Below, in pieces: positions 11,541-21,864 of a DNA stretch of 64,000 nt (position 1 is its first letter; every line of letters begins with the position of its first letter). The stretch is from the human T2T-CHM13v2.0 reference genome, Homo sapiens. Position numbers and translations under genes: made by a program. The notes beneath the pieces are model-generated. The model was not told the origin of the DNA and did not search any database. It saw only the letters and a list, made by a program, of their open reading frames with translations. Location of the stretch: NCBI RefSeq assembly GCF_009914755.1, contig NC_060936.1; one strand, written 5' to 3'.

Positions 11541-13752
11541 TAATTATGGCACTCACTGTCTCTAAAATCATCTTGGGAACCTAACATCTTTCAGGCATAC
11601 AGACTTAACTTCCAGTCCATTTTCGTTTCCTGCAGTTCCTTATTCATAAACCTAGGAAATATTTCTCAGTGACCCCAGGAAAAATTGCCCCAGCTTAACT
11701 CTGTAACCTGTTCAATTTTACCCTCACATGCAATTGAGAAGTGTTCTTAATTTATAACAGCAACAGCTTCTTTCAGAAAGCTTTCCCACCTAACTGTACC
11801 AATCTCACCTATAAGCGACATCATTGGCTCATTTCTCTACCTTGAATTTCACTCTGGATAAATTTAGAAGTCACCTTTTGTAATTTTACACATTTTCTTT
11901 AAATTTTTCCCACAACATAAACCTACAAGATTCTTCTTTTTTCTTAACAGCTTGCAAAAGTGGTCATATATATCTATGATTCATCTCCTTCAGCCAAATG
12001 GTCTGAAATATTCAAGGACTTCAACTGCCTAAAGGCTTTTTTCAGATAACACAATTGTGCATATACTCTTTTCAGCTTTAAATTCAAAATACTGTCCATT
12101 AGATTTTTCATATTCTCCTAGTTGAAAGACTTTTTAGGACATCTAAAATTTGTGTGAATTTTTAAATTTATGTCTTTTGAGTTATTTTCTTCTTTTATTT
12201 TGCCAAGAATTAATATGCATTTTAAAGCAATAGAAATAATTTGTCCCTTTGCAGCATTTTTTATCCCTTTGCAGAATTTATTAGACAATAGTTACTACCT
12301 TTATGAAGCAGATTTCCTGGACATCTACAAACTTCTTTAAATTACAGTGTTAGTAGTAAACATGCTTTTATGAGATTCCACATGTGGAAAAAAATAACTT
12401 TTTAAGAATGTTTAGTTTGATCTCTGCCCAATAGGATATCATATAATAAAATTATAGGTAAAAGCCACAAAAAAAAAATAAAGTCATAAAAAATGATAAA
12501 AGTTATCTGGTGAAATTGATTAGCAATGTATGGATCATTTTTCTCATTTACATTTTTCTAGAAACTTATTAATTTTTCTTCATCAAAATGTGATGCTCAA
12601 AAGTTGAAAGCCAGAATGCCATCACAAATAAGGAGGAAAATTGTCGTAGTTTAGAATGCCTAAAGTTACAATTGCATAACATATGCTGTTAAAAAAATAT
12701 ATCCTCTATTAGTCATTTCTCACAAAAATCTGTGATGAACTTTACATAACCAAAAAATCCCTGGTATCTCAGCAGGGTCACTCCAGCTGTCAGTGTGAAT
12801 ACATGCAAAATGAAACAAACAAGATATACCTATTTTCTTTCTTTGTCTGAAAAGGATGGCTTTCATTCAAATTCACATCATACATTTGCAGATAAACTAT
12901 ATTTTTGCATTGTGTGATTTAGTGACATCACATTTTCATGCAAAGGACCATTGAATTCCCTAATGATGTTCTGATTTTCTTAACAATGAACACCAGTGAA
13001 CTTTCCCCTAGGCAAACCAGATGGAAACTAAATCGTTTCTGCAGAATGAACGATTTGTGAAATCTTGGCAAATTGAATTCCAAATATACTTAGAGATGAT
13101 CTTGACTTTCTCTGTAACTCTACCACAACATGCAATACATTTAAGGCCTACATGGGAAATACACTAATTAGTTGCATAACCTTTATGCAGAAATGAATGA
13201 GAACAGAAGATCACCATCAAAGGAATAAAAGTCAATAACTCCGAAAAAGAAGTAATATGCAGATGGGACATCTTCACTAAGAAAGTATGAGTTTAATGTA
13301 GATATTGTGGGAGGTATTCCCTTGTCATCTTTGAATTGGTTCTTTTTAACCTGCTTTGTGAAGGAGGTAACTCATTAAGCACGTTTCTTTACATTGTTTC
13401 AAATACGTTATTTAGCTAGTTATATGAAAATCTGAATTCAAATTCTTAATCTATGTGTCTACATTTTCTACTTCACACACTCTCTTACCTATACCCCAAA
13501 ATGGAATTAAATGGACTGTGCATGAAAAAGATTTTGTTTCTATTACCCACAATCTAATTATATTATTTTCACAGTGACATTATGAAACTATCCAGTAGAT
13601 GCAACATGTTTGTCACACAAAAGATAAATTGTGCTTTCTTCTTTATTTCAAGTAAAGAATCCTTACAATTCTCATAGCATTCCATCTACAGAGGGTTATA
13701 ATTTCCCCAGATGTGACTAAAATGGCCATAGTTATCATTAGGTTTTATATCT

Positions 13753-14112
13753 TGTCTGAATCCATTTAGGCTACTATAACAAGATACCATAAACTGGGTG
13801 GCTCATAAACAACAAAAATTTATTTCTCACAGTTCTGGAAGCTGAGAAGTCTGAGATGAAGGTGCCAGCAAATTTAGTGTCTGATGAAGTCCGCTTACTG
13901 GCTCATGGTCTTTTCACCATATCCTCACATGTCAGACGGGGCAAAGGAATTCTCTCTGGCCTCTTTTACAAGGACTCTCATCCCATTCAGGAAGACTCAG
14001 CCCTCATCACCTAATCACCTCCCATTGGCCTCACCTCCTAATACCATCACCTTGGGAGTTAGGATTTCAATGTATGAATTCTGCGGAGGAGACACAAACA
14101 TTCACAGCACAG
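13753..14112. mobile_element. MaLR LTR (MLT1A-like)
   Basis: ggctactataacaagataccataaactgggtggc...atttatttctcacagttctgga...aggatttcaatgtatgaatt...gacacaaacattca signature. Confidence 0.8.
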
Positions 14113-14924
14113 TGTACCTATTCAGAAATTCAGATATTCCACCTCAGCTACTATGTCATCAAGTAATCAGGGCTTTTTTGCATTTTTACAAGGTTCACTC
14201 ATATCTAAATCTAAATCTAAAGAGGGTTTTTTTGCATCTTTACAAGATTCAGCCACTCAATGTCTTTAAAAAATAATGAGGCAAAGTCAGGAAAACGCTT
14301 TTTAGAAAGGGTTATTCTACTGGCATTAAACTAGCAAGAAAAAAATATTGGCATCTTTCATTTATAGAACAGGTTTAATTTCTCAACACTTTTATGTTTT
14401 GACTTGTTTATTCCTACCAGCTCTTTGTTATAAAAGATAGTTACATTATTATTTATAAATCTAACAACAAACAACAAACCAGCCAAATTCCCAATGTTGT
14501 TTATGTATCATTTTTCAAACCTATTCATTTTTCTCAAATTGTGATTGTTTTCTCTTTGTCTTGTTTACATTTTTTCCTGCCAAGTTAATTCTCCAATAAA
14601 CTTTATACATGGTCCGTGACATTGCTCCCCTTCTGGAAACATTGATACCCAAAATCCTACTTTATATTTTTACCTTTGCTTTTAATGAGAAACCCAAATG
14701 TATCTTAACTCTTCAAAAAAAAGTTACTGAGTATAAGCTATGTGCTAGGCAGCTTTTTCTTTTTAATATCACTATTGCCTGTAGCTTAGTTTTTCATTTT
14801 TACCTCATGGTCTTGACCAACTAACTCCAAACTTTTCTTACTGAGGTACAAACTAAGAATGACTATTTTCTCTGTCCTATGCCTTTCCCACAGTTAAAAA
14901 AAAAAATCTCTCTTGTCTGTAACT

Positions 14925-15250
14925 CTATATTCATATGGTGCACACTGTTAGGCAAACCGATTAAAACCCAGGACATATTTAATGAAAGAGGGAGAAAGGT
15001 GAGCAGATATTTACGGCACAATATTGCAAGTGCTATACTGAGGGTTTGGGAAGGTGTTACAGAAATGCAAAGAAAGAAGAAGGGCCAAACTTGAACGAGA
15101 ATGGTCAGGGAAAGGCTCGGCGAGGATATGATAGTGAGAAATAAGTAGGAGACCAGTAGGAAAACAAGGGAAGGGAAGTTGTACCAGGCAGATGAAGCAG
15201 CACGTTCAAAGGCTTGGAGGCACAAGAACATGGTGCAATCAAGAACATGC
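14925..15250 (-). mobile_element. L2 fragment
   Basis: caagtgctatactgagg...ggtcagggaaaggct...caaaggcttggaggc L2-like; abuts the 3' end of the ZCCHC3-like fossil. Confidence 0.55.
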
Positions 15251-17203
15251 AAGCATCCGCTCTCCTTGTTCTATTTCCTGCAACCCTATATGAATTTGCT
15301 TTCATGTAGTAAGATTTCTGTTGTGTAAGCTTAATCTCCTTTGATATTTCTTTGATAATACTTTCATCATTTTTCTTCTTATGTCCATAGACTTCATCCT
15401 CTACTCTGGCATCATCTTCATAGGTTGCCCTTTGTATTCTTAAAAATCTTTTCAAGTGGGATCACCTTTTCCAAAAGCCTGTCAAGAGGTCAGGTTATGT
15501 TTAACCAGGACCCTCCCATGTCTACTGTGTTAATCCTTCTTGCTTGCAAATATTAGGAGAGCCAGGAACATTCACAAAGCTGGTCTTTTTTATTTCTCAC
15601 GACACATTGACACATCTAACTCACTTTTTCCTTCTCCCACAATTCATTCCCCCACTCCAGGTGACATTCTTCCCCTACTGATGAGTGTCAAAACATCCCA
15701 AGCCTATCCCTTCAGGTGTGTTGACCTCCCTCTTTACATTATAGTAAAGTGCTTGTGCTTAATAGTAAATTCCATTCTGCTTCCAACACGGCAAGCAGTG
15801 CTTTCCTACACTTGTACGATTTTATTTAGGCCCCCAAGACCCTTTCAACTAGATCTTTCTTTCTGGAATCTAATGTCTCCTCTTGTCAGATAGTCCTTTT
15901 TCCTGGAACTTGGGTTTTATCCACAGAAAGCCTGTTATGTTTGTCTGTTTTTCCAGCCTTTCCTCGTATTTCTTCTGTGTGTTCTTATGCCTTTCCTTTC
16001 CTTGTATGCCTTTGCTTGTGTTCTCTGATGCTTTTTTTTTTTTTACTCGCAATCTTTTCTTTAATCTTCTGTGGACTTCAAACACAGGTCCGTGTTTGAA
16101 AAGGCAGTGGTTTCCCTTTCCTCTGCAAGAACCATCTTCTCCAGGCACCTTTATCTTGGCTCTTGCTCTTCCGACTAGCTTATTTAAATTCCTGCTGTAC
16201 CTTTCAATCCATTTTGAGAGAAGTATAAATAATATGTAACATTGATAACATTTTCCTCCATTCAATCAACAATAGTTTACCAACACACACACATACCCAA
16301 AATACCCAATGACAACCTCTTTTTAGGGTCCATCCATTCAAAAACACATACCCTGTGCTAAACCTCTCATGCTACCTTTTCCTTATCTGAGACTTTTCTC
16401 CAAGCACTTTCTTCTCATGTGATTTGTCAACACACATATAAAGGACATCTCTGGCTGTTCCAGCAACAGCCAGAACTTGTTTCTGTTCTGGATTAAAAGC
16501 AGCTGGAAAGTAGAATGCCCATGTTCACCTTGACAGCTTTCTGTTCCATACTTATGTTTCCCTATCCTAATGCCAAATTTCTCTGCTGCTGTTAATGAAA
16601 CTTTACTACATCATAATGGGATTTTTCAATGAAATTGCCATATGACCTATCTCCTGTGTTACAGTCTTGAAGAGAACTAACAGCCTTTGGCTTTAACTTG
16701 CTTGGGGAAATCACCAGTGCCTGCTGCTTTTTCTCCTGATACAGCCTACAAAATATATCCATTTTCTCTATCATCTGAGGTTCACATCAAACTCTTTATT
16801 TCTGTGGATTTGAATTACTGCAAATATGTCTCCTGGGTTCTTCCCAATTGAACTGATAATTAGGGTCCTGCCACATAGTCCCTCTCCAGGCAACAGCTCT
16901 CATCCATTATGAAGTAAGTCCACAAAAAAAGTCTTTCAAAATCCTTCCACTGCTTTCCCCACGATTCCTGAGTTGATTTTCCTTATCTTCTCTCTTCTTT
17001 CTGTCCTCTTCCTAATGGAAGATAAAATAGACAAATTGGCACTTTTTCCCCTTTATTCTCTTCCTCAAGCTTCTTTTTTCTCCTCTATATCTTTCTCTAT
17101 TTTTCCTACGGCTTTGCCTCTCTAACTGCAATTCTTTGCCTTTTTTTGTGTCTTCTCTCCTTTTTTAAGTGTCCCATTTGCATTTGCTGTTGACAGAGGC
17201 CAT
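15250..17203 (-). pseudogene. Degenerate ZCCHC3-like / Tx1-type ORF1 (CCHC zinc-knuckle) pseudogene with two tandem modules
   Basis: Manual minus-strand translation across frameshifts gives RLFLWTYFIMDESCCLERDYVAG, LIISSIGKNPGDIFAVIQIHRNKEFDVNLR, IEKMDIFCRLYQEKKQQ, KFGIRIGKHKYGTESCQGEHG and EQPEMSFICVLTNHMRRKC. These are collinear with the ZCCHC3 C-terminal half as recalled. A second, weaker copy lies at 16172-15590. Multiple stops and frameshifts. Confidence 0.8.
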
Positions 17204-17268
17204 GGCAAGCTAGAGCCAAAAGTAGAGAAGCTGGCTTTGGCCCCCTCTGACCTCCCTAACACTGCACT

Positions 17269-17612
17269 CATTCATTCATTCATTGAGACAGGATCTCAGT
17301 CTTTTACCCAGGCTGGAGTGCAGTGGCAATCATAGTTCACTGCAGCCTCCTTATAACTTCTGGGCTCAAGCAATCCTTCCACCTCGGCCTCTGGAATAGC
17401 TGGGATGACCGGTGCACACCACCATGCTGGGCCAATTATTTATTTTTTATTTTATGTTATGTATTTATTTATTTTTATTATTTTTTATTTTGGGGGGTGG
17501 AGACAGGGTCTTGTTTTGTTGCACAGGCTGGTCTCAAACTCCTGATTTCAAGAGATCTTCTGCCTTAGCCTCCAAAAATTTTGGGAGTACAGCATGAGCC
17601 ACTGTGCCCAGC
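17269..17612 (-). mobile_element. AluJ with (TTCA)n tail
   Basis: Diverged Alu dimer (gggctcaagcaatcc); TSD-like cctaacact on both sides. Confidence 0.88.
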
Positions 17613-18890
17613 CCCTAACACTCCTTTAAATAGCTCTTCTCTCCTCACCATCTTCTGTGTGACTTGCCTTAGTCTATCCCATGTCTTTCATGTCCTCCTT
17701 TTTGGTTCCCCTCCCCCCAGTGTTGGGACCCCTTGGCTCACAGATAGATTGTGTGCCATCCTCACTGATAGGTAAATAGACATTTACAGTCAATATTGCA
17801 GTAGACAAAGAAGATATTATTTATCCATTTTAATGGTGGGAGGAGAACATGCTCAGAGTGCACCTAGGAGCTGATTAGTGGCAGAACTCAGGTCTGCTGG
17901 GCATTCCCCACAGCTCCTCTTTTATGACAGCTCCCTGACAAGAAGGAAAACTTTCCTTGGGTAATGACATCTCCAAATTGCGTGGCCATTCCTATTCCCT
18001 CCAGAGATTTCTTCTTGGATACTATTGTCCCAGAACTAAAAAGAGAAAAATACTCTTTGGATAGAACAACATCCTAGCTTCTGAGCTTTCTGCATCAAGA
18101 CCCCATTTTCCCCATGATGTCCTCTCAAGTTAATTAGGATGCACTAGCAGAAGTAGCTACAGAGTGACAGAACTTCAGGATACAAAGTCCTTGCAGTCAT
18201 TGAGTATCATTAGTAAAAAGGTAATGCTGCTCTGTCAGGAAGCCTGTGTATAAATCATTCAGATACATATCTCTGCCACTAAAGATTATGCTTCTCAGAG
18301 TTAAAAGTACTAAACAATGCCTTCCAAGGTTTATCTGCCACTGTTTTTCATGAACGCTCCAGGATCAAGAGCACACTTTCTGGCATATTGCTTTAAAATG
18401 CCTCCTTTCTAACTGTGCAGGTCAAATCTGCATTGTTATTTAGAAATACATGTTGCCCATATTTCAAAATTACTTGGTATCCACACTTACATTTACATTT
18501 TAACAGAAGATAATACTGGTTCCCATAATCCAAATCACTATGAGGCAGCTTTATCCCAGAGCCTCAAAGTCAGGTGAGGACAGGAAAGTAGAATGTTTAA
18601 AATTGGATTTGACCCAGAAAACCGAGGACATGTGGTTGACAGAGGGAGAATGTTAAAGTGACAAAGCAACTTGGTAAAAGGTTTGTCTTTGGACGCCATC
18701 CCCAAACTGTTCTCCATTAGTTTCTTTCCACTTCGCATGTCCTTAGGCAATTGGCCATTTGCCTGGATTCCTACTTAGCCCTCTACCGAGAGCAGCACCC
18801 AAGCTATGGGGCTCACCTACCATCTTCCCCATTTTTCACCATTTCCATTGACTTAGAGAAATCATCCATATTCCAAGAAAATGTCAACTA

Positions 18891-19211
<321 letters not shown>

Positions 19212-19223
19212 AACTAAAATTTC

Positions 19224-21321
19224 TCTTTTTTTTTTCTTCAATCCCTCCCTGCCTCCCTCCCTCCCTCCCTTCCTTACTTCCTTTCTTCCTTCCTTCTTCC
19301 CTCCCTCCCTCCCTTTTTTTTTATTATACTTTAAGTTCTAGGGTACATGTGCACAATGTGCAGGTTTGTTACATATGTATACATGTGCTGTGTTGGTTTG
19401 CCGCACCCATTAACTCGTCATTTACATTAGGTATTTCTCCTAATACTATCCCTCCCCCATCCCCCGACCCCACAACAGGCCCGTGTGTGATGTTCCCCAC
19501 CCTGTGTCCAAGTGTTCTCATTGTTCAATTCCCACCTATGAGTGAGAACATGCAGTGTTTGTTTTTCTGTCCTTGTGATAGTTTGCTCAGAATAATGGTT
19601 TCCAGCTTCATCCATGTCACTACAAACAACATGAATTCATCCTTTTTTATGGCTGCGTAGTATTCCATGGTGTATATGTGCCGCATTTTCTTAATCCAGT
19701 CTATCATTGATGGACATTTGGGTTGGTTCCAAGTCTTTGCTATTGTGAATAGTGCTGCAATAAACATACGTGTGCATGTGTCTTTATAGCAGCATGATTT
19801 ATAATCCTTTGGGTATATACCCAGTAATGGGATGGCTGGGTCAAATGGTATTTCTAGTTCTAGATCCTTGAAGGAATTGCCACACTGTCTTCCACAATGG
19901 TTGAACTAATTTACACTCCCACCAACAGTGTAAAAGTGTTCCTATTTCTCCACATCCTCTCCAGCACCTGTTGTTTCCTGACTTTTTAATGATCGCCATT
20001 CTAACTGTTGTGAGATAGTATCTCATTGTGGTTTTGATTTGCATTTCTCTGATGACCAGTGATGATGAGCATTTTTTCATGTGTCTGTTGGCTGCATAAA
20101 TGTCTTCTTTTGAAAAGTATCTGTTCATATCCTTTGCCCACGTTTTGATGGGGTCGTTTGATTTTTCTTGTAAATTTGTTTAAGTTCTTTGTAGATTCTG
20201 GAAATTAGCCCTTTGTCAGATGGGTAGATTGCAAAAATTTTCTGCCATTCTGAAGGTTACCTGTTCACTCTGATGGTAGTTTCTTTTGCTGTGCAGAAGC
20301 CCTTTAGTTTAATTAGATCCCATTTGTCTATTTTGACTTTTGTTGTCATTGCTTTTGGTGTTTTAGTCATGAAGTCCTTGCCCATGCCTACGTCCTGAAT
20401 GGTATTGCCTAGGTTTTCTTCTAGGGATTTTATGGTTTTAGGTCTAACATTTAAGTCTTTAATGCATCTTGAATTAATTTTTGTATAAGGTGTAAGGAAG
20501 GGATCCAGTTTCAGCTTTCTACATAATGGCTAGCCAGTTTTCCCAGCACCATTTGTTAAATAGGGAATCCTTTCCCCATTTCTTGTTTTTGTCAGTTTTG
20601 TCAAAGATCAGATGGTTGTAGATGTGTGGTGTTATTTCTGAGGGCTCTGTTCTGTTCCATTGGTCTATATGTCTGTTTTGGTACCAGTACCATGCTGTTT
20701 TGGTTACTGTAGCCTTGTAGTATAGTTTGAAGTCAGGTAGTGTGATGCCTCCAGCTTTGTTCTTTTTGCTTAGGATGTCTTGGCAATGCGGGCTCTTTTT
20801 TGGTTCCATATGAACTTTAAAGTAGTTTTTTCCAATTCTGTGAAGAAAGTCATTGGTAGCTTGATGGGGATGGCACTGAATCTATAAATTACCTTGGGCA
20901 GTATGGCCATTTTCATGATATTCATTCTTCCTGTCCATGAACATGGAGTGTTCTTCCATTTGCTTGTGTCCTCTTTTATTTCCTTGAGCAGTGGTTTGTA
21001 GTTCTCCTTGAAGAGGTCCTTCACATCCCTTGTAAGTTGGATTCCTAGGTATTTTTTTCTCTTTGTGGTAATTGTGAATGGGAGCTCACTCATGATTTGG
21101 CTCTCTGTTTGTCTGTTATTGGTGTATAAGAATGCTTGTGATTTTGCATATTGATTTTGTATCCTGAGACTGCTGAAGTTGCTTATCAGCTTAAGGAGAT
21201 TTTGGGCTGAGACAATGGGGTTTTCTAAATATACAATCATGTCATCTGCAAACAGGGACAATTTGACTTCCTGTTTTCCTAATTGAATACCCTTTATTTC
21301 TTTCCCTTGCCTGATTGCCCT
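19224..21321 (-). mobile_element. 5'-truncated L1PA (about PA5-PA7), ORF2 RT/C-terminal remnants, 3' UTR and CT-rich decayed tail
   Basis: ORFs [14 protein letters not shown]..., [16 protein letters not shown]... and [14 protein letters not shown]; L1 3' UTR; TSD ctg(a/g)ccaacta(a/c)aatttc at 19206-19223 and 21322-21339. Confidence 0.95.
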
Positions 21322-21864
21322 CTGGCCAACTACAATTTCATACCATGATGGATGCCATGTTGCCCATTAGGGGGTGAAACAGTGTTTCATATTGTTTTAA
21401 AGGACCCATAGAGATCTAAAGCTTTAGCTAAAGGTAATAAATGGTAGAATTTCAAGTACCTCAGCACACTATAGCATAAAGAATCTTTTGACAAGGACAC
21501 TTTTGGAATTCACTTTTCCCTACTCTCCACTAAAAAGTCACAGTAGTAATTATTTACAAATTCCTCTACTTTCTCTATAGTGGTCCTTCCTAATACATGT
21601 TTCTATAATGACACCTACAATTTTATGTTGAATTTTTGTTTATATGCCTGTTCATGCCAGCATTGAAAAAGCTTCTTAGGGCAAAGACATGTTTTAATCA
21701 TCCTTTGTTTCTAGTTCTTTGTAGCATGACTGGCATATTGAAAACCCAACATAAGGGTTTGACATATAAGACTAAGCTTTACTCATTTTCTACAAACCAC
21801 AGATTTTTAAGTGGATCACTAATTATACTTCTGAAAACACTGTTTAGAAGTCATTTATTTATTA

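What the first reader, a model, noticed from the sequence alone, without database searches (positions are those of the whole stretch)
16370..16934. Hidden ZCCHC3-like (Tx1/L1 ORF1-type zinc-knuckle) fossil gene antisense within a SYT1 intron
Seen: minus-strand reading across several frameshifts gives ordered blocks. RLFLWTYFIMDESCCLERDYVAG starts at 16934; LIISSIGKNPGDIFAVIQIHRNKEFDVNLR spans 16863-16774; then IEKMDIFCRLYQEKKQQ, LVLFKTVTQEIGHMAISLK and SHYDVV; KFGIRIGKHKYGTESCQGEHG spans 16580-16518; then FPAAF; EQPEMSFICVLTNHMRRKC spans 16460-16404 (CX2CX4HX4C with the first C changed to S). Knowledge, from memory: human ZCCHC3 reads RFLVRICFQGDEGACPTRDFVVG-ALILRSIGMDPSDIYAVIQIPGSREFDVSFR-SAEKLALFLRVYEEKREQ...FILFRNETVDVEDIVTWLKRHCDVL...DRFGIWTGEYKCEIELRQGEGG..LPGAF...GQPKTCFKCGSRTHMSGSC. 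ZCCHC3 is a nucleic-acid-binding innate-immune cofactor (cGAS, RIG-I/MDA5) that resembles Tx1-clade ORF1. Inference: this is an old paralog or ORF1 relic, not a recent retrocopy, because it is AT-rich and highly diverged. The ORF track captures only a 60-aa piece of it.
Basis: partly seen in the sequence, partly recalled or inferred. Interest (0 to 1): 0.88.

Follow-up and report, generated by a model that had tools for sequence, protein, structure and literature searches.

The report
Ancient ZCCHC3-like gene fossil in SYT1
A badly decayed, very old copy of the RNA-binding immune gene ZCCHC3 lies backwards inside an intron of SYT1; it is one of a few dozen such dead copies scattered over the human genome and is most likely inert.

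Summary
On the minus strand, about 17204..16279 (robust core 17118..16377), the window carries a frameshifted, stop-ridden copy of almost a whole ZCCHC3-type coding sequence. A frameshift-aware alignment to opossum ZCCHC3 scores 290 against 39.9 +/- 5.5 for shuffles. Pfam RBD_ZCCHC3_1st is hit above its cut-off.

It is not unique. The human assembly holds about 27 similarly decayed copies on many chromosomes. All 17 copies examined score better against mammalian ZCCHC3 than against any other family member. No young copy was seen. No reverse transcriptase or endonuclease relic follows 11 of 11 copies examined. DNA homology between copies is confined to the coding part.

Best reading: an inert fossil of an ancient burst of retroposition of the ZCCHC3 lineage in stem mammals. 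The source was either an ORF1-only retroposon lineage that also left the living gene, or the host gene itself. The Tx1 label could not be tested.

The single locus is ordinary. The family-level pattern is moderately interesting.

The parts
16279..17204 (-). Whole extent of the ZCCHC3-like coding relic as given by the frameshift-aware alignment (opossum ZCCHC3 aa15-333). Both ends are soft.
   Evidence: score 290 against shuffles of 39.9 +/- 5.5; 10 frameshifts, 6 stops, 124/289 identical.
16935..17204 (-). Relic of the basic, K/E/R-rich N-terminal region upstream of the first RNA-binding domain. It includes a short motif shared with opossum ZCCHC3 and with two other human relics.
   Evidence: a single tblastn match of opossum aa40-180 to 17118-16720, E 2.2e-13. 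N-terminal part alone z 4.6 (0 of 200 dinucleotide shuffles); the same motif is seen in the chrX:149.5M and chr12:70.63M copies.
16721..16934 (-). Relic of the first ZCCHC3-type RNA-binding domain (RBD1), split over three frames. This is the best preserved part.
   Evidence: PF23057 at 28.5 bits (cut-off 27); 31.2 bits in the genome-wide family search; collinear tblastn matches; the only part that aligns at DNA level (71-78%) to most other copies.
16495..16680 (-). Relic of the second ZCCHC3-type RNA-binding domain (RBD2), split over four frame segments.
   Evidence: human aa282-350 to 16601-16398, E 5.6e-4; opossum aa231-302 to 16586-16377, E 7e-5; alignment. DNA homology to the chr7:146.7M and chr13:104.2M copies. 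Pfam PF23058 itself was not hit on single frames.
16404..16460 (-). Degenerate first CCHC zinc knuckle. The first Cys position reads Ser and the second Cys is kept out of register.
   Evidence: No zf-CCHC Pfam hit.
16279..16403 (-). Place where knuckles 2 and 3 should lie. No detectable similarity remains.
   Evidence: z 0.3, 65 of 200 shuffles reach the score.
16032..16044 (-). Run of 13 A on the relic's strand, about 890 nt after the start of RBD1. It could be a poly(A)-tail remnant but is not shown to belong to the relic.
   Evidence: A-runs in the other copies lie at inconsistent offsets.

Best explanation
This is a dead copy of a ZCCHC3-type gene: a basic N-terminal region, two ZCCHC3-type RNA-binding domains and the first CCHC knuckle. 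It was inserted antisense into what is now a SYT1 intron and has drifted neutrally since.

It belongs to a set of about 27 dispersed copies in the human genome. They contain only the coding unit and are all decayed to a similar degree. All are nearer to therian ZCCHC3 than to any other member of the large vertebrate ZCCHC3-like family.

The most likely origin is retroposition: an mRNA-like transcript copied into DNA by a LINE enzyme acting in trans. This would have happened in the mammalian stem lineage, before the marsupial-placental split, during a burst of amplification of an ORF1-only (half-LINE-like) lineage of this family. On this reading the living gene ZCCHC3 on chr20 is the one surviving, domesticated descendant of the same lineage. 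The copy has no present function.

Shown: homology, extent, decay, copy number, closeness to therian ZCCHC3, and lack of a detectable ORF2.
Inferred: retroposition, the date, and that the source was a self-amplifying element rather than an ordinary host gene.
For: Homology and decay.

Copy number:
- The opossum query finds the chr20 gene plus 23 relic loci at E <= 0.01 among 69 candidates.
- Four more loci are supported by DNA or profile matches.

All copies are old. In some searches nothing lies between the gene itself and matches of at most 58% amino-acid identity. No copy matches the chr20 gene at DNA level.

Relationship to ZCCHC3:
- 17 of 17 relics score higher against mammalian ZCCHC3 than against about 155 other family proteins.
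- 14 of 17 score best against opossum.
- At 38 columns where therian ZCCHC3 differs from the wider family, relics carry the therian state 160 times and the wider state 31 times of 369. Retention at fully conserved columns is 284/581.
- At one such column the relics keep the wider family's Trp (5) rather than the therian Leu (2). This places the sources at or just before the therian ancestor.

The wider family behaves like a mobile-element protein. There are 1772 clusters (50% identity) at E <= 1e-3, and 20 of 22 close relatives of one coelacanth member come from that one species at 43-61% identity.

DNA homology between copies is limited to about -150..+600 of the RBD1 start, that is the coding part, and is strongest in RBD1. 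Flanks match only through Alu-like repeats. This pattern fits sources that had diverged under selection for coding capacity.

No ORF2.
Against: - No feature proves retroposition. No target-site duplication was sought successfully. A-runs lie at inconsistent offsets. The parent gene is single-exon, so loss of introns cannot be used.
- Nothing separates an ORF1-only retroposon from a host gene whose mRNA was retrocopied many times. The tree is a near star with long terminal branches.
- The relic rows used were aligned with opossum as guide, which biases them toward therian states. One search does not have this bias.
- The ORF2 test is of limited sensitivity. For 8 copies only stop-free fragments of 45 aa or more were scanned.
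- The taxa of most wider-family proteins are unknown. The 50% clustering of the library could hide non-mammalian orthologues. The claim that the gene arose in mammals is therefore open.
- The date rests on substitution levels and on one ancestral residue, not on orthologous loci in other species.
Confidence: 0.5

Rival explanations
1. These are ordinary processed pseudogenes. ZCCHC3 was already a host gene, and its mRNA was retrocopied by LINE enzymes about 27 times in early mammals. The SYT1 copy is one of these pseudogenes.
For: - All relics are nearest to therian ZCCHC3 and share most of its lineage-specific residues.
- The units contain only the coding sequence with no ORF2.
- Several copies lack the 5' half, as 5'-truncated retrocopies do.
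- Younger ZCCHC3-like copies exist in other mammals, for example Peromyscus paralogues at 86-88%.
Against: - The human genome shows no young or intermediate copy. That is odd for a gene prone to retrocopying, given what is generally known of continued L1 activity (recalled, no call).
- Similarity between copies is uneven along the unit. This points to diverged sources, while the host gene has been very conservative: 96-100% identity among most placentals over 244 aa.
- The wider family looks like a mobile-element protein.
Confidence: 0.3
2. This is the ORF1 of a full-length Tx1-like or other L1-superfamily LINE. Its ORF2 has been deleted or has decayed beyond detection.
For: - The architecture of two RNA-binding domains plus CCHC knuckles matches the 'Type I ORF1p' class reported for Tx1 and non-mammalian L1 (PMC5203782, passages read).
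- L1-Tx1 polymerase fossils exist in the human genome (PMC9004415, tables 4 and 5 read in passages).
- The family is multicopy.
Against: - 0 of 11 copies examined has an old endonuclease or reverse-transcriptase relic within 4.5-7 kb downstream.
- The window, read through in 3 frames, gave 0 Pfam families at E <= 1.
- The chr11 and chr8 copies showed only mammalian L1 insertions that are not in register with the relic.
- 0 of 146 stop-free fragments from 8 further copies hit such a family.
- 0 of 17 long family proteins carry such domains.
- The reverse-transcriptase domain is normally the best preserved part of an old LINE (general knowledge).
- No Tx1 ORF1 sequence could be compared.
Confidence: 0.12
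3. The stretch is functional today, either as an unannotated coding exon or gene or as an exapted regulatory element of SYT1.
For: None from these tools. Old protein fossils that survive are sometimes exapted (PMC9004415, abstract read).
Against: - 10 frameshifts and 6 stops within 925 bases.
- No RefSeq gene or functional element lies at this place in the hub's table.
- No Rfam family in 14000-19000.
- Decay is similar to that of the other copies.
Confidence: 0.04
4. The match is chance similarity in AT-rich DNA.
For: Only 1 of 6 single frames hits Pfam, and single tblastn matches are modest.
Against: z 45 and z 41.7 against shuffles, and the reversed protein scores 46 against 290. Independent DNA-level matches link the same segment to other ZCCHC3-like relics.
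Confidence: 0.01

Closest known systems
ZCCHC3 (human chr20 gene; Pfam RBD_ZCCHC3_1st PF23057, RBD_ZCCHC3_2nd PF23058, zf-CCHC PF00098)
   Same: Same domain order, collinear over almost the whole protein. It is the nearest relative of the relic among all proteins compared.
   Different: The relic has 10 frameshifts and 6 stops, 43% identity, and no detectable knuckles 2 and 3. It is AT-rich, with no DNA-level match to the gene. It is a fossil, not a gene.
Ancient 'protein fossils' of the human genome (Frith 2022, PMC9004415)
   Same: The same kind of object: an old, frameshifted coding remnant that can be found only by protein-level, frameshift-tolerant alignment. That study reports 27,240 host-gene-derived fossils, of which 4,303 were new (section 13 read).
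   Different: The main text does not mention ZCCHC (0 occurrences).
Type I ORF1p of Tx1 and non-mammalian L1 LINEs
   Same: RNA-binding domain(s) followed by CCHC knuckles, a multicopy family in non-mammalian vertebrates (PMC5203782 passages).
   Different: No ORF2 was found next to any human copy examined. No sequence comparison with a Tx1 ORF1p was possible.
L1TD1, a host gene derived from L1 ORF1
   Same: A precedent for an ORF1-type protein kept as a host gene (PMC4161310, only the start of the abstract seen in the listing).
   Different: L1TD1 comes from the Transposase_22 type of ORF1. ZCCHC3 has a different fold family.
HAL1 ('half-L1') elements
   Same: An ORF1-only unit amplified in trans. 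This is the model I propose for the source lineage. (Recalled from memory; no call.)
   Different: HAL1 encodes an L1-type ORF1 and is a recognised repeat family with defined ends. No shared ends were found here.

Membership tests
ZCCHC3 family (protein) | First ZCCHC3-type RNA-binding domain (PF23057) above the curated cut-off | tested here: met
   28.5 bits against a cut-off of 27 on frame 16771-16899; 31.2 bits in the genome-wide family search.
ZCCHC3 family (protein) | Second ZCCHC3-type RNA-binding domain (PF23058), collinear after the first | tested here: inconclusive
   No Pfam hit on single frames, and the window is not among the PF23058 genome hits. Collinear tblastn matches do cover it (E 5.6e-4, 7e-5), as does the frameshift-aware alignment.
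ZCCHC3 family (protein) | Three CCHC zinc knuckles | tested here: not met
   The first knuckle is degenerate. Knuckles 2 and 3 are not detectable (z 0.3).
ZCCHC3 family (protein) | Intact open reading frame (a living gene) | tested here: not met
   10 frameshifts and 6 stops. The longest piece is 75 aa.
LINE of the L1/Tx1 group | ORF2 with endonuclease and reverse transcriptase downstream of ORF1 | tested here: not met
   0 Pfam families at E <= 1 in 7 kb downstream, 3 frames read through. 0 of 10 other copies have such a relic. Sensitivity is limited for the 8 copies scanned as fragments.
LINE of the L1/Tx1 group | Specific sequence relationship of this ORF to Tx1 ORF1p | not testable with these tools
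   No Tx1 or Repbase/Dfam sequence is held. No paper in the library joins ZCCHC3 and Tx1.
Interspersed repeat family | Many dispersed copies that are homologous at DNA level | tested here: met
   About 27 loci. DNA identity is 68-79% (mostly 71-78%) over about 60-170 bases of RBD1 in most pairs.
Interspersed repeat family | Shared element ends (UTRs, tails) beyond the coding part | tested here: not met
   nhmmer all-against-all of 17 copies finds homology only from about -150 to +600. Outside that range only Alu-like matches appear.
Processed pseudogene of ZCCHC3 | Nearest relative is the parent gene | tested here: met
   17 of 17 copies score best against mammalian ZCCHC3.
Processed pseudogene of ZCCHC3 | Poly(A) tail and target-site duplication | tested here: inconclusive
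   There is an A13 run at 16032-16044, but offsets across copies are inconsistent. Duplications were not sought, since none is expected to survive this much decay.
Processed pseudogene of ZCCHC3 | Loss of the parent's introns | not testable with these tools
   The parent's coding sequence is one open frame in the genome, so this feature carries no information.

The most novel reading that the evidence does not exclude
ZCCHC3 is known as a co-sensor for cGAS and RIG-I-like receptors and as a strong restrictor of LINE-1. The novel reading is that it is the sole living descendant of an extinct ORF1-only retroposon lineage that amplified in stem mammals. The roughly 27 decayed copies in the human genome, including the nearly full-length one in SYT1, would then be the fossil record of that lineage. 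A LINE-type ORF1 protein would have been turned into a defence against LINEs. The searched open literature does not describe this origin.
Probability: 0.35. Interest if true: 0.7.

Novelty: new member of a known kind. Interest (0 to 1): 0.42.

Why it matters
By itself the locus is one more dead gene copy in an intron, and nothing suggests it affects SYT1.

The set it belongs to is more interesting. ZCCHC3 binds the L1 ribonucleoprotein and suppresses L1 (PMC10351740, abstract and passages read). Its wider family looks like a mobile-element ORF1 family. The human genome also keeps a burst of old copies that branch next to the living gene.

If the burst proves to be the trace of a mobile ancestor, ZCCHC3 would be a second, independent case beside L1TD1 of an ORF1-type protein taken over by the host, here for defence. 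Dating would be possible from the orthologous loci of the fossils.

Tried and rejected
- Recent retrocopy: rejected.
- Chance: rejected.
- Living gene: rejected.
- Search for ORF2:
  - Read-through with X worked for the window and two copies.
  - I then sent stop-free fragments of 45 aa or more: 146 of the 267 fragments listed, covering 8 of 14 copies. The other 121 fragments were not sent.
- Fused ORF1-RT forms:
  - 0 of 17 long family proteins carry RT or endonuclease domains.
  - A word-index search for longer relatives found none at E <= 1e-10. The tool itself calls that weak evidence.
- Solved structures: only zinc-knuckle matches (Air2, retroviral nucleocapsids), nothing for the RNA-binding domains.
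- ESM Atlas: only ZCCHC3-type and CCHC clusters, none with RT.
- Coelacanth-type relics in human: none beyond the same loci.
It gives a near star that cannot order the copies.
- Poly(A) remnants: inconsistent.
- Rfam: nothing.
- Literature:
  - No paper holds both ZCCHC3 and Tx1.
  - Nothing on domestication or exaptation of ZCCHC3 was found.
  - No paper holds 'ZCCHC3P', 'ZCCHC3 pseudogene', 'ZCCHC3-like' or 'ZCCHC3 homolog'.
  - A search for orthologues in chicken or fish gave only noise.
- Earlier findings were not open.
Full report
**What is there**

The minus strand between about 17200 and 16280 reads, across three frames, as a decayed ZCCHC3-type protein. To avoid sequence from memory I took human ZCCHC3 from the assembly itself. 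The Pfam family search of the window's own genome found the intact gene on contig 20 (93.9 bits), and its 403-aa frame was read from locus L005. Pfam on that protein gives RBD_ZCCHC3_1st, RBD_ZCCHC3_2nd and zf-CCHC.

**Is it more than chance**

- tblastn of that protein on window 12000-20000 gives four collinear minus-strand matches covering aa174-350 (E 5.7e-7, 0.046, 5.6e-4).
- Pfam hits RBD_ZCCHC3_1st above its curated cut-off on one 42-aa frame (28.5 against 27 bits). The other five frames hit nothing.
- Opossum ZCCHC3 (P0054, named by its source) aligns better. aa40-180 match 17118-16720 in one piece (E 2.2e-13), and aa231-302 match 16586-16377.
- A frameshift-aware local alignment that I wrote gives score 290 for opossum aa15-333 against 17204..16279. 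There are 10 frameshifts, 6 stops and 124 of 289 identities. One hundred shuffles give 39.9 +/- 5.5, and the reversed protein gives 46. Human ZCCHC3 scores 229.
- With 200 dinucleotide shuffles the core has z 41.7 and the N-terminal basic part z 4.6. The place where knuckles 2 and 3 should lie is indistinguishable from shuffles.
- The relic thus covers nearly a whole coding unit with little net length change, but it is thoroughly broken.

**It is one of many**

- A DNA search of the assembly with the relic found three other places that match its RBD1 segment at 71-76% and did not find the chr20 gene.
- Family and protein searches added more. With the opossum protein as query, 26 rows at E <= 0.01 among 69 candidates correspond to the gene plus 23 relic loci.
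- Four further loci are supported, giving about 27 in all. The tool states that such counts are lower bounds.
- All relic matches but three short ones (chr8:21.65M, chr6:37.15M and chr3:155.6M) carry stops. None is more than 58% identical to the query, so there is no young copy.

**Relationship to ZCCHC3 and the wider family**

- An exhaustive HMMER search with human aa160-403 found 1772 clusters at E <= 1e-3, 720 at 1e-10 and 161 at 1e-30.
- The word-index search found 66 proteins. Those that carry a name are all mammalian, and only the last (27% identical, unnamed) is not ZCCHC3-like. Most placentals are 96-100% identical over 244 aa, and opossum is 71% identical.
- One of the best non-mammalian hits is from coelacanth. 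Of its 22 close relatives, 20 are from that same species at 43-61% identity. That is what a mobile-element protein looks like.
- No protein between about 71-75% and 44% identity to human appeared. However, the library is clustered at 50% and most rows carry no taxon. I therefore do not claim the gene is confined to mammals.
- blastx of 17 relics against all 226 fetched proteins gave a mammalian ZCCHC3 as best hit in 17 of 17, and opossum in 14 of 17.
- There are 38 alignment columns where placentals and opossum agree with each other but differ from the majority of 36 other family members. There the relics show the therian residue 160 times and the other residue 31 times of 369. They keep 284 of 581 residues at fully conserved columns.
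- At one column the relics keep the wider family's Trp (5 against 2).
- A FastTree of 17 relics, opossum, 4 placentals and 36 others shows the relics radiating from the node beside therian ZCCHC3, far from the coelacanth and other clades.
- Caveat: the relic rows for searches were built with opossum as guide, which favours therian states. One search is free of that bias.

**Is it a LINE ORF1 with an ORF2 behind it**

- In the window, 7 kb downstream read through in three frames gives no Pfam family at E <= 1.
- Downstream of the chr11 and chr8 copies the only hits are mammalian L1 domains. These are Transposase_22 and partners at 61.9-180.9 bits, and RVT_1 at 44 bits.
- The chr8 reverse-transcriptase hit adjoins DNA that matches the window's masked repeat at 20413-21326. 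In the window that repeat lies on the other side of the relic, so these are unrelated insertions.
- For eight further copies, 0 of 146 stop-free fragments within 5 kb downstream hit a reverse transcriptase or endonuclease family. Ten weak unrelated hits all fell below their cut-offs. I sent 146 of 267 listed fragments.
- None of 17 long family proteins carries such domains.
- nhmmer and blastn all-against-all of 17 copies find homology only from about -150 to +600 relative to the RBD1 start, peaking in RBD1. Everything outside is Alu-like.
- The units therefore look like coding sequence only, and their sources seem to have differed outside the conserved core.

**Age**

- Against the human coding sequence, codon positions 1+2 of the window's relic differ at 37% of sites (Jukes-Cantor 0.51). 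Position 3 differs at 69%, which is saturated. The other copies give 31-48%.
- Part of this is change in the living gene and alignment noise. Even so, it is at or above the level I recall for mammal-wide repeats such as MIR and L2 (recalled, no call).
- Together with the retained ancestral residue and the better fit to opossum than to placentals, I infer insertion before the marsupial-placental split. This is inference; no other vertebrate genome could be searched.

**What it most likely is**

It is an inert fossil made by retroposition of a ZCCHC3-lineage transcript. I favour a self-amplifying, ORF1-only source lineage (probability 0.5). My reasons are that the family is mobile-element-like elsewhere, the human copies form one old burst with no later copies, and similarity between copies is uneven along the unit. 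Ordinary pseudogenes of an already domesticated host gene remain a serious rival (0.3). A full LINE whose ORF2 is gone is less likely (0.12).

**Literature**

- Type I ORF1p (RRM plus CCHC) is described for Tx1 and non-mammalian L1 (PMC5203782, passages).
- Frith 2022 found L1-Tx1 polymerase fossils and 27,240 host-gene fossils in human (PMC9004415, passages and sections 13 and 17).
- Searches for a link between ZCCHC3 and Tx1, domestication, exaptation or pseudogenes found nothing. Subscription journals are not covered.

**Limits**

- No repeat library, no other vertebrate genome and no conservation track were available.
- The Tx1 label, the date and the choice between retroposon and pseudogene rest on the steps listed as decisive.

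Noticed in passing
window 17262-17579: An Alu-like repeat just upstream (on the relic's strand) of the relic. It matches many places in the other fetched loci at 68-82% and is masked in the hub's table.
   Followed up: no
window 18881-21323: A masked interspersed repeat, 92-93% identical over 1-2 kb to copies in the chr3:120.78M and chr11:10.42M loci and 72-77% identical to others. In the chr8 locus the homologous DNA adjoins an RVT_1 hit, so it is probably an L1 fragment. It is unrelated to the relic.
   Followed up: partly
window 15870-16265 (-): A 131-aa stop-free frame in purine-rich DNA just downstream of the relic, rich in K/R/E. It has no Pfam family and no similarity to ZCCHC3 beyond chance. 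It is probably a chance frame.
   Followed up: partly
G000:C8:21653229-21653569 (locus L013): The best preserved piece among the other copies. It has stop-free frames of 114-116 aa and is 58% identical to opossum ZCCHC3 over 50 aa of RBD1.
   Followed up: partly
G000:C7:146713117-146713449 (locus L041): A copy that keeps RBD2 and recognisable remains of all three knuckles, but no 5' half. It looks 5'-truncated.
   Followed up: partly
protein P0055 (unnamed source): A 245-aa database 'protein' that is 75% identical to human ZCCHC3. Its substitutions look like a translated decayed copy of the placental-type gene. A younger retrocopy therefore seems to exist in some other species.
   Followed up: no
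proteins P0045-P0050: Peromyscus and Onychomys carry 'ZCCHC3-like' paralogues at 86-88% identity beside the orthologue. This suggests recent duplication or retrocopying of the gene in these rodents.
   Followed up: no
G000:C23:72738044-72738235: The coelacanth family member matches an open 191-aa frame on the X chromosome through its knuckle region only. It is presumably another CCHC-knuckle gene and not a relic of this family.
   Followed up: no
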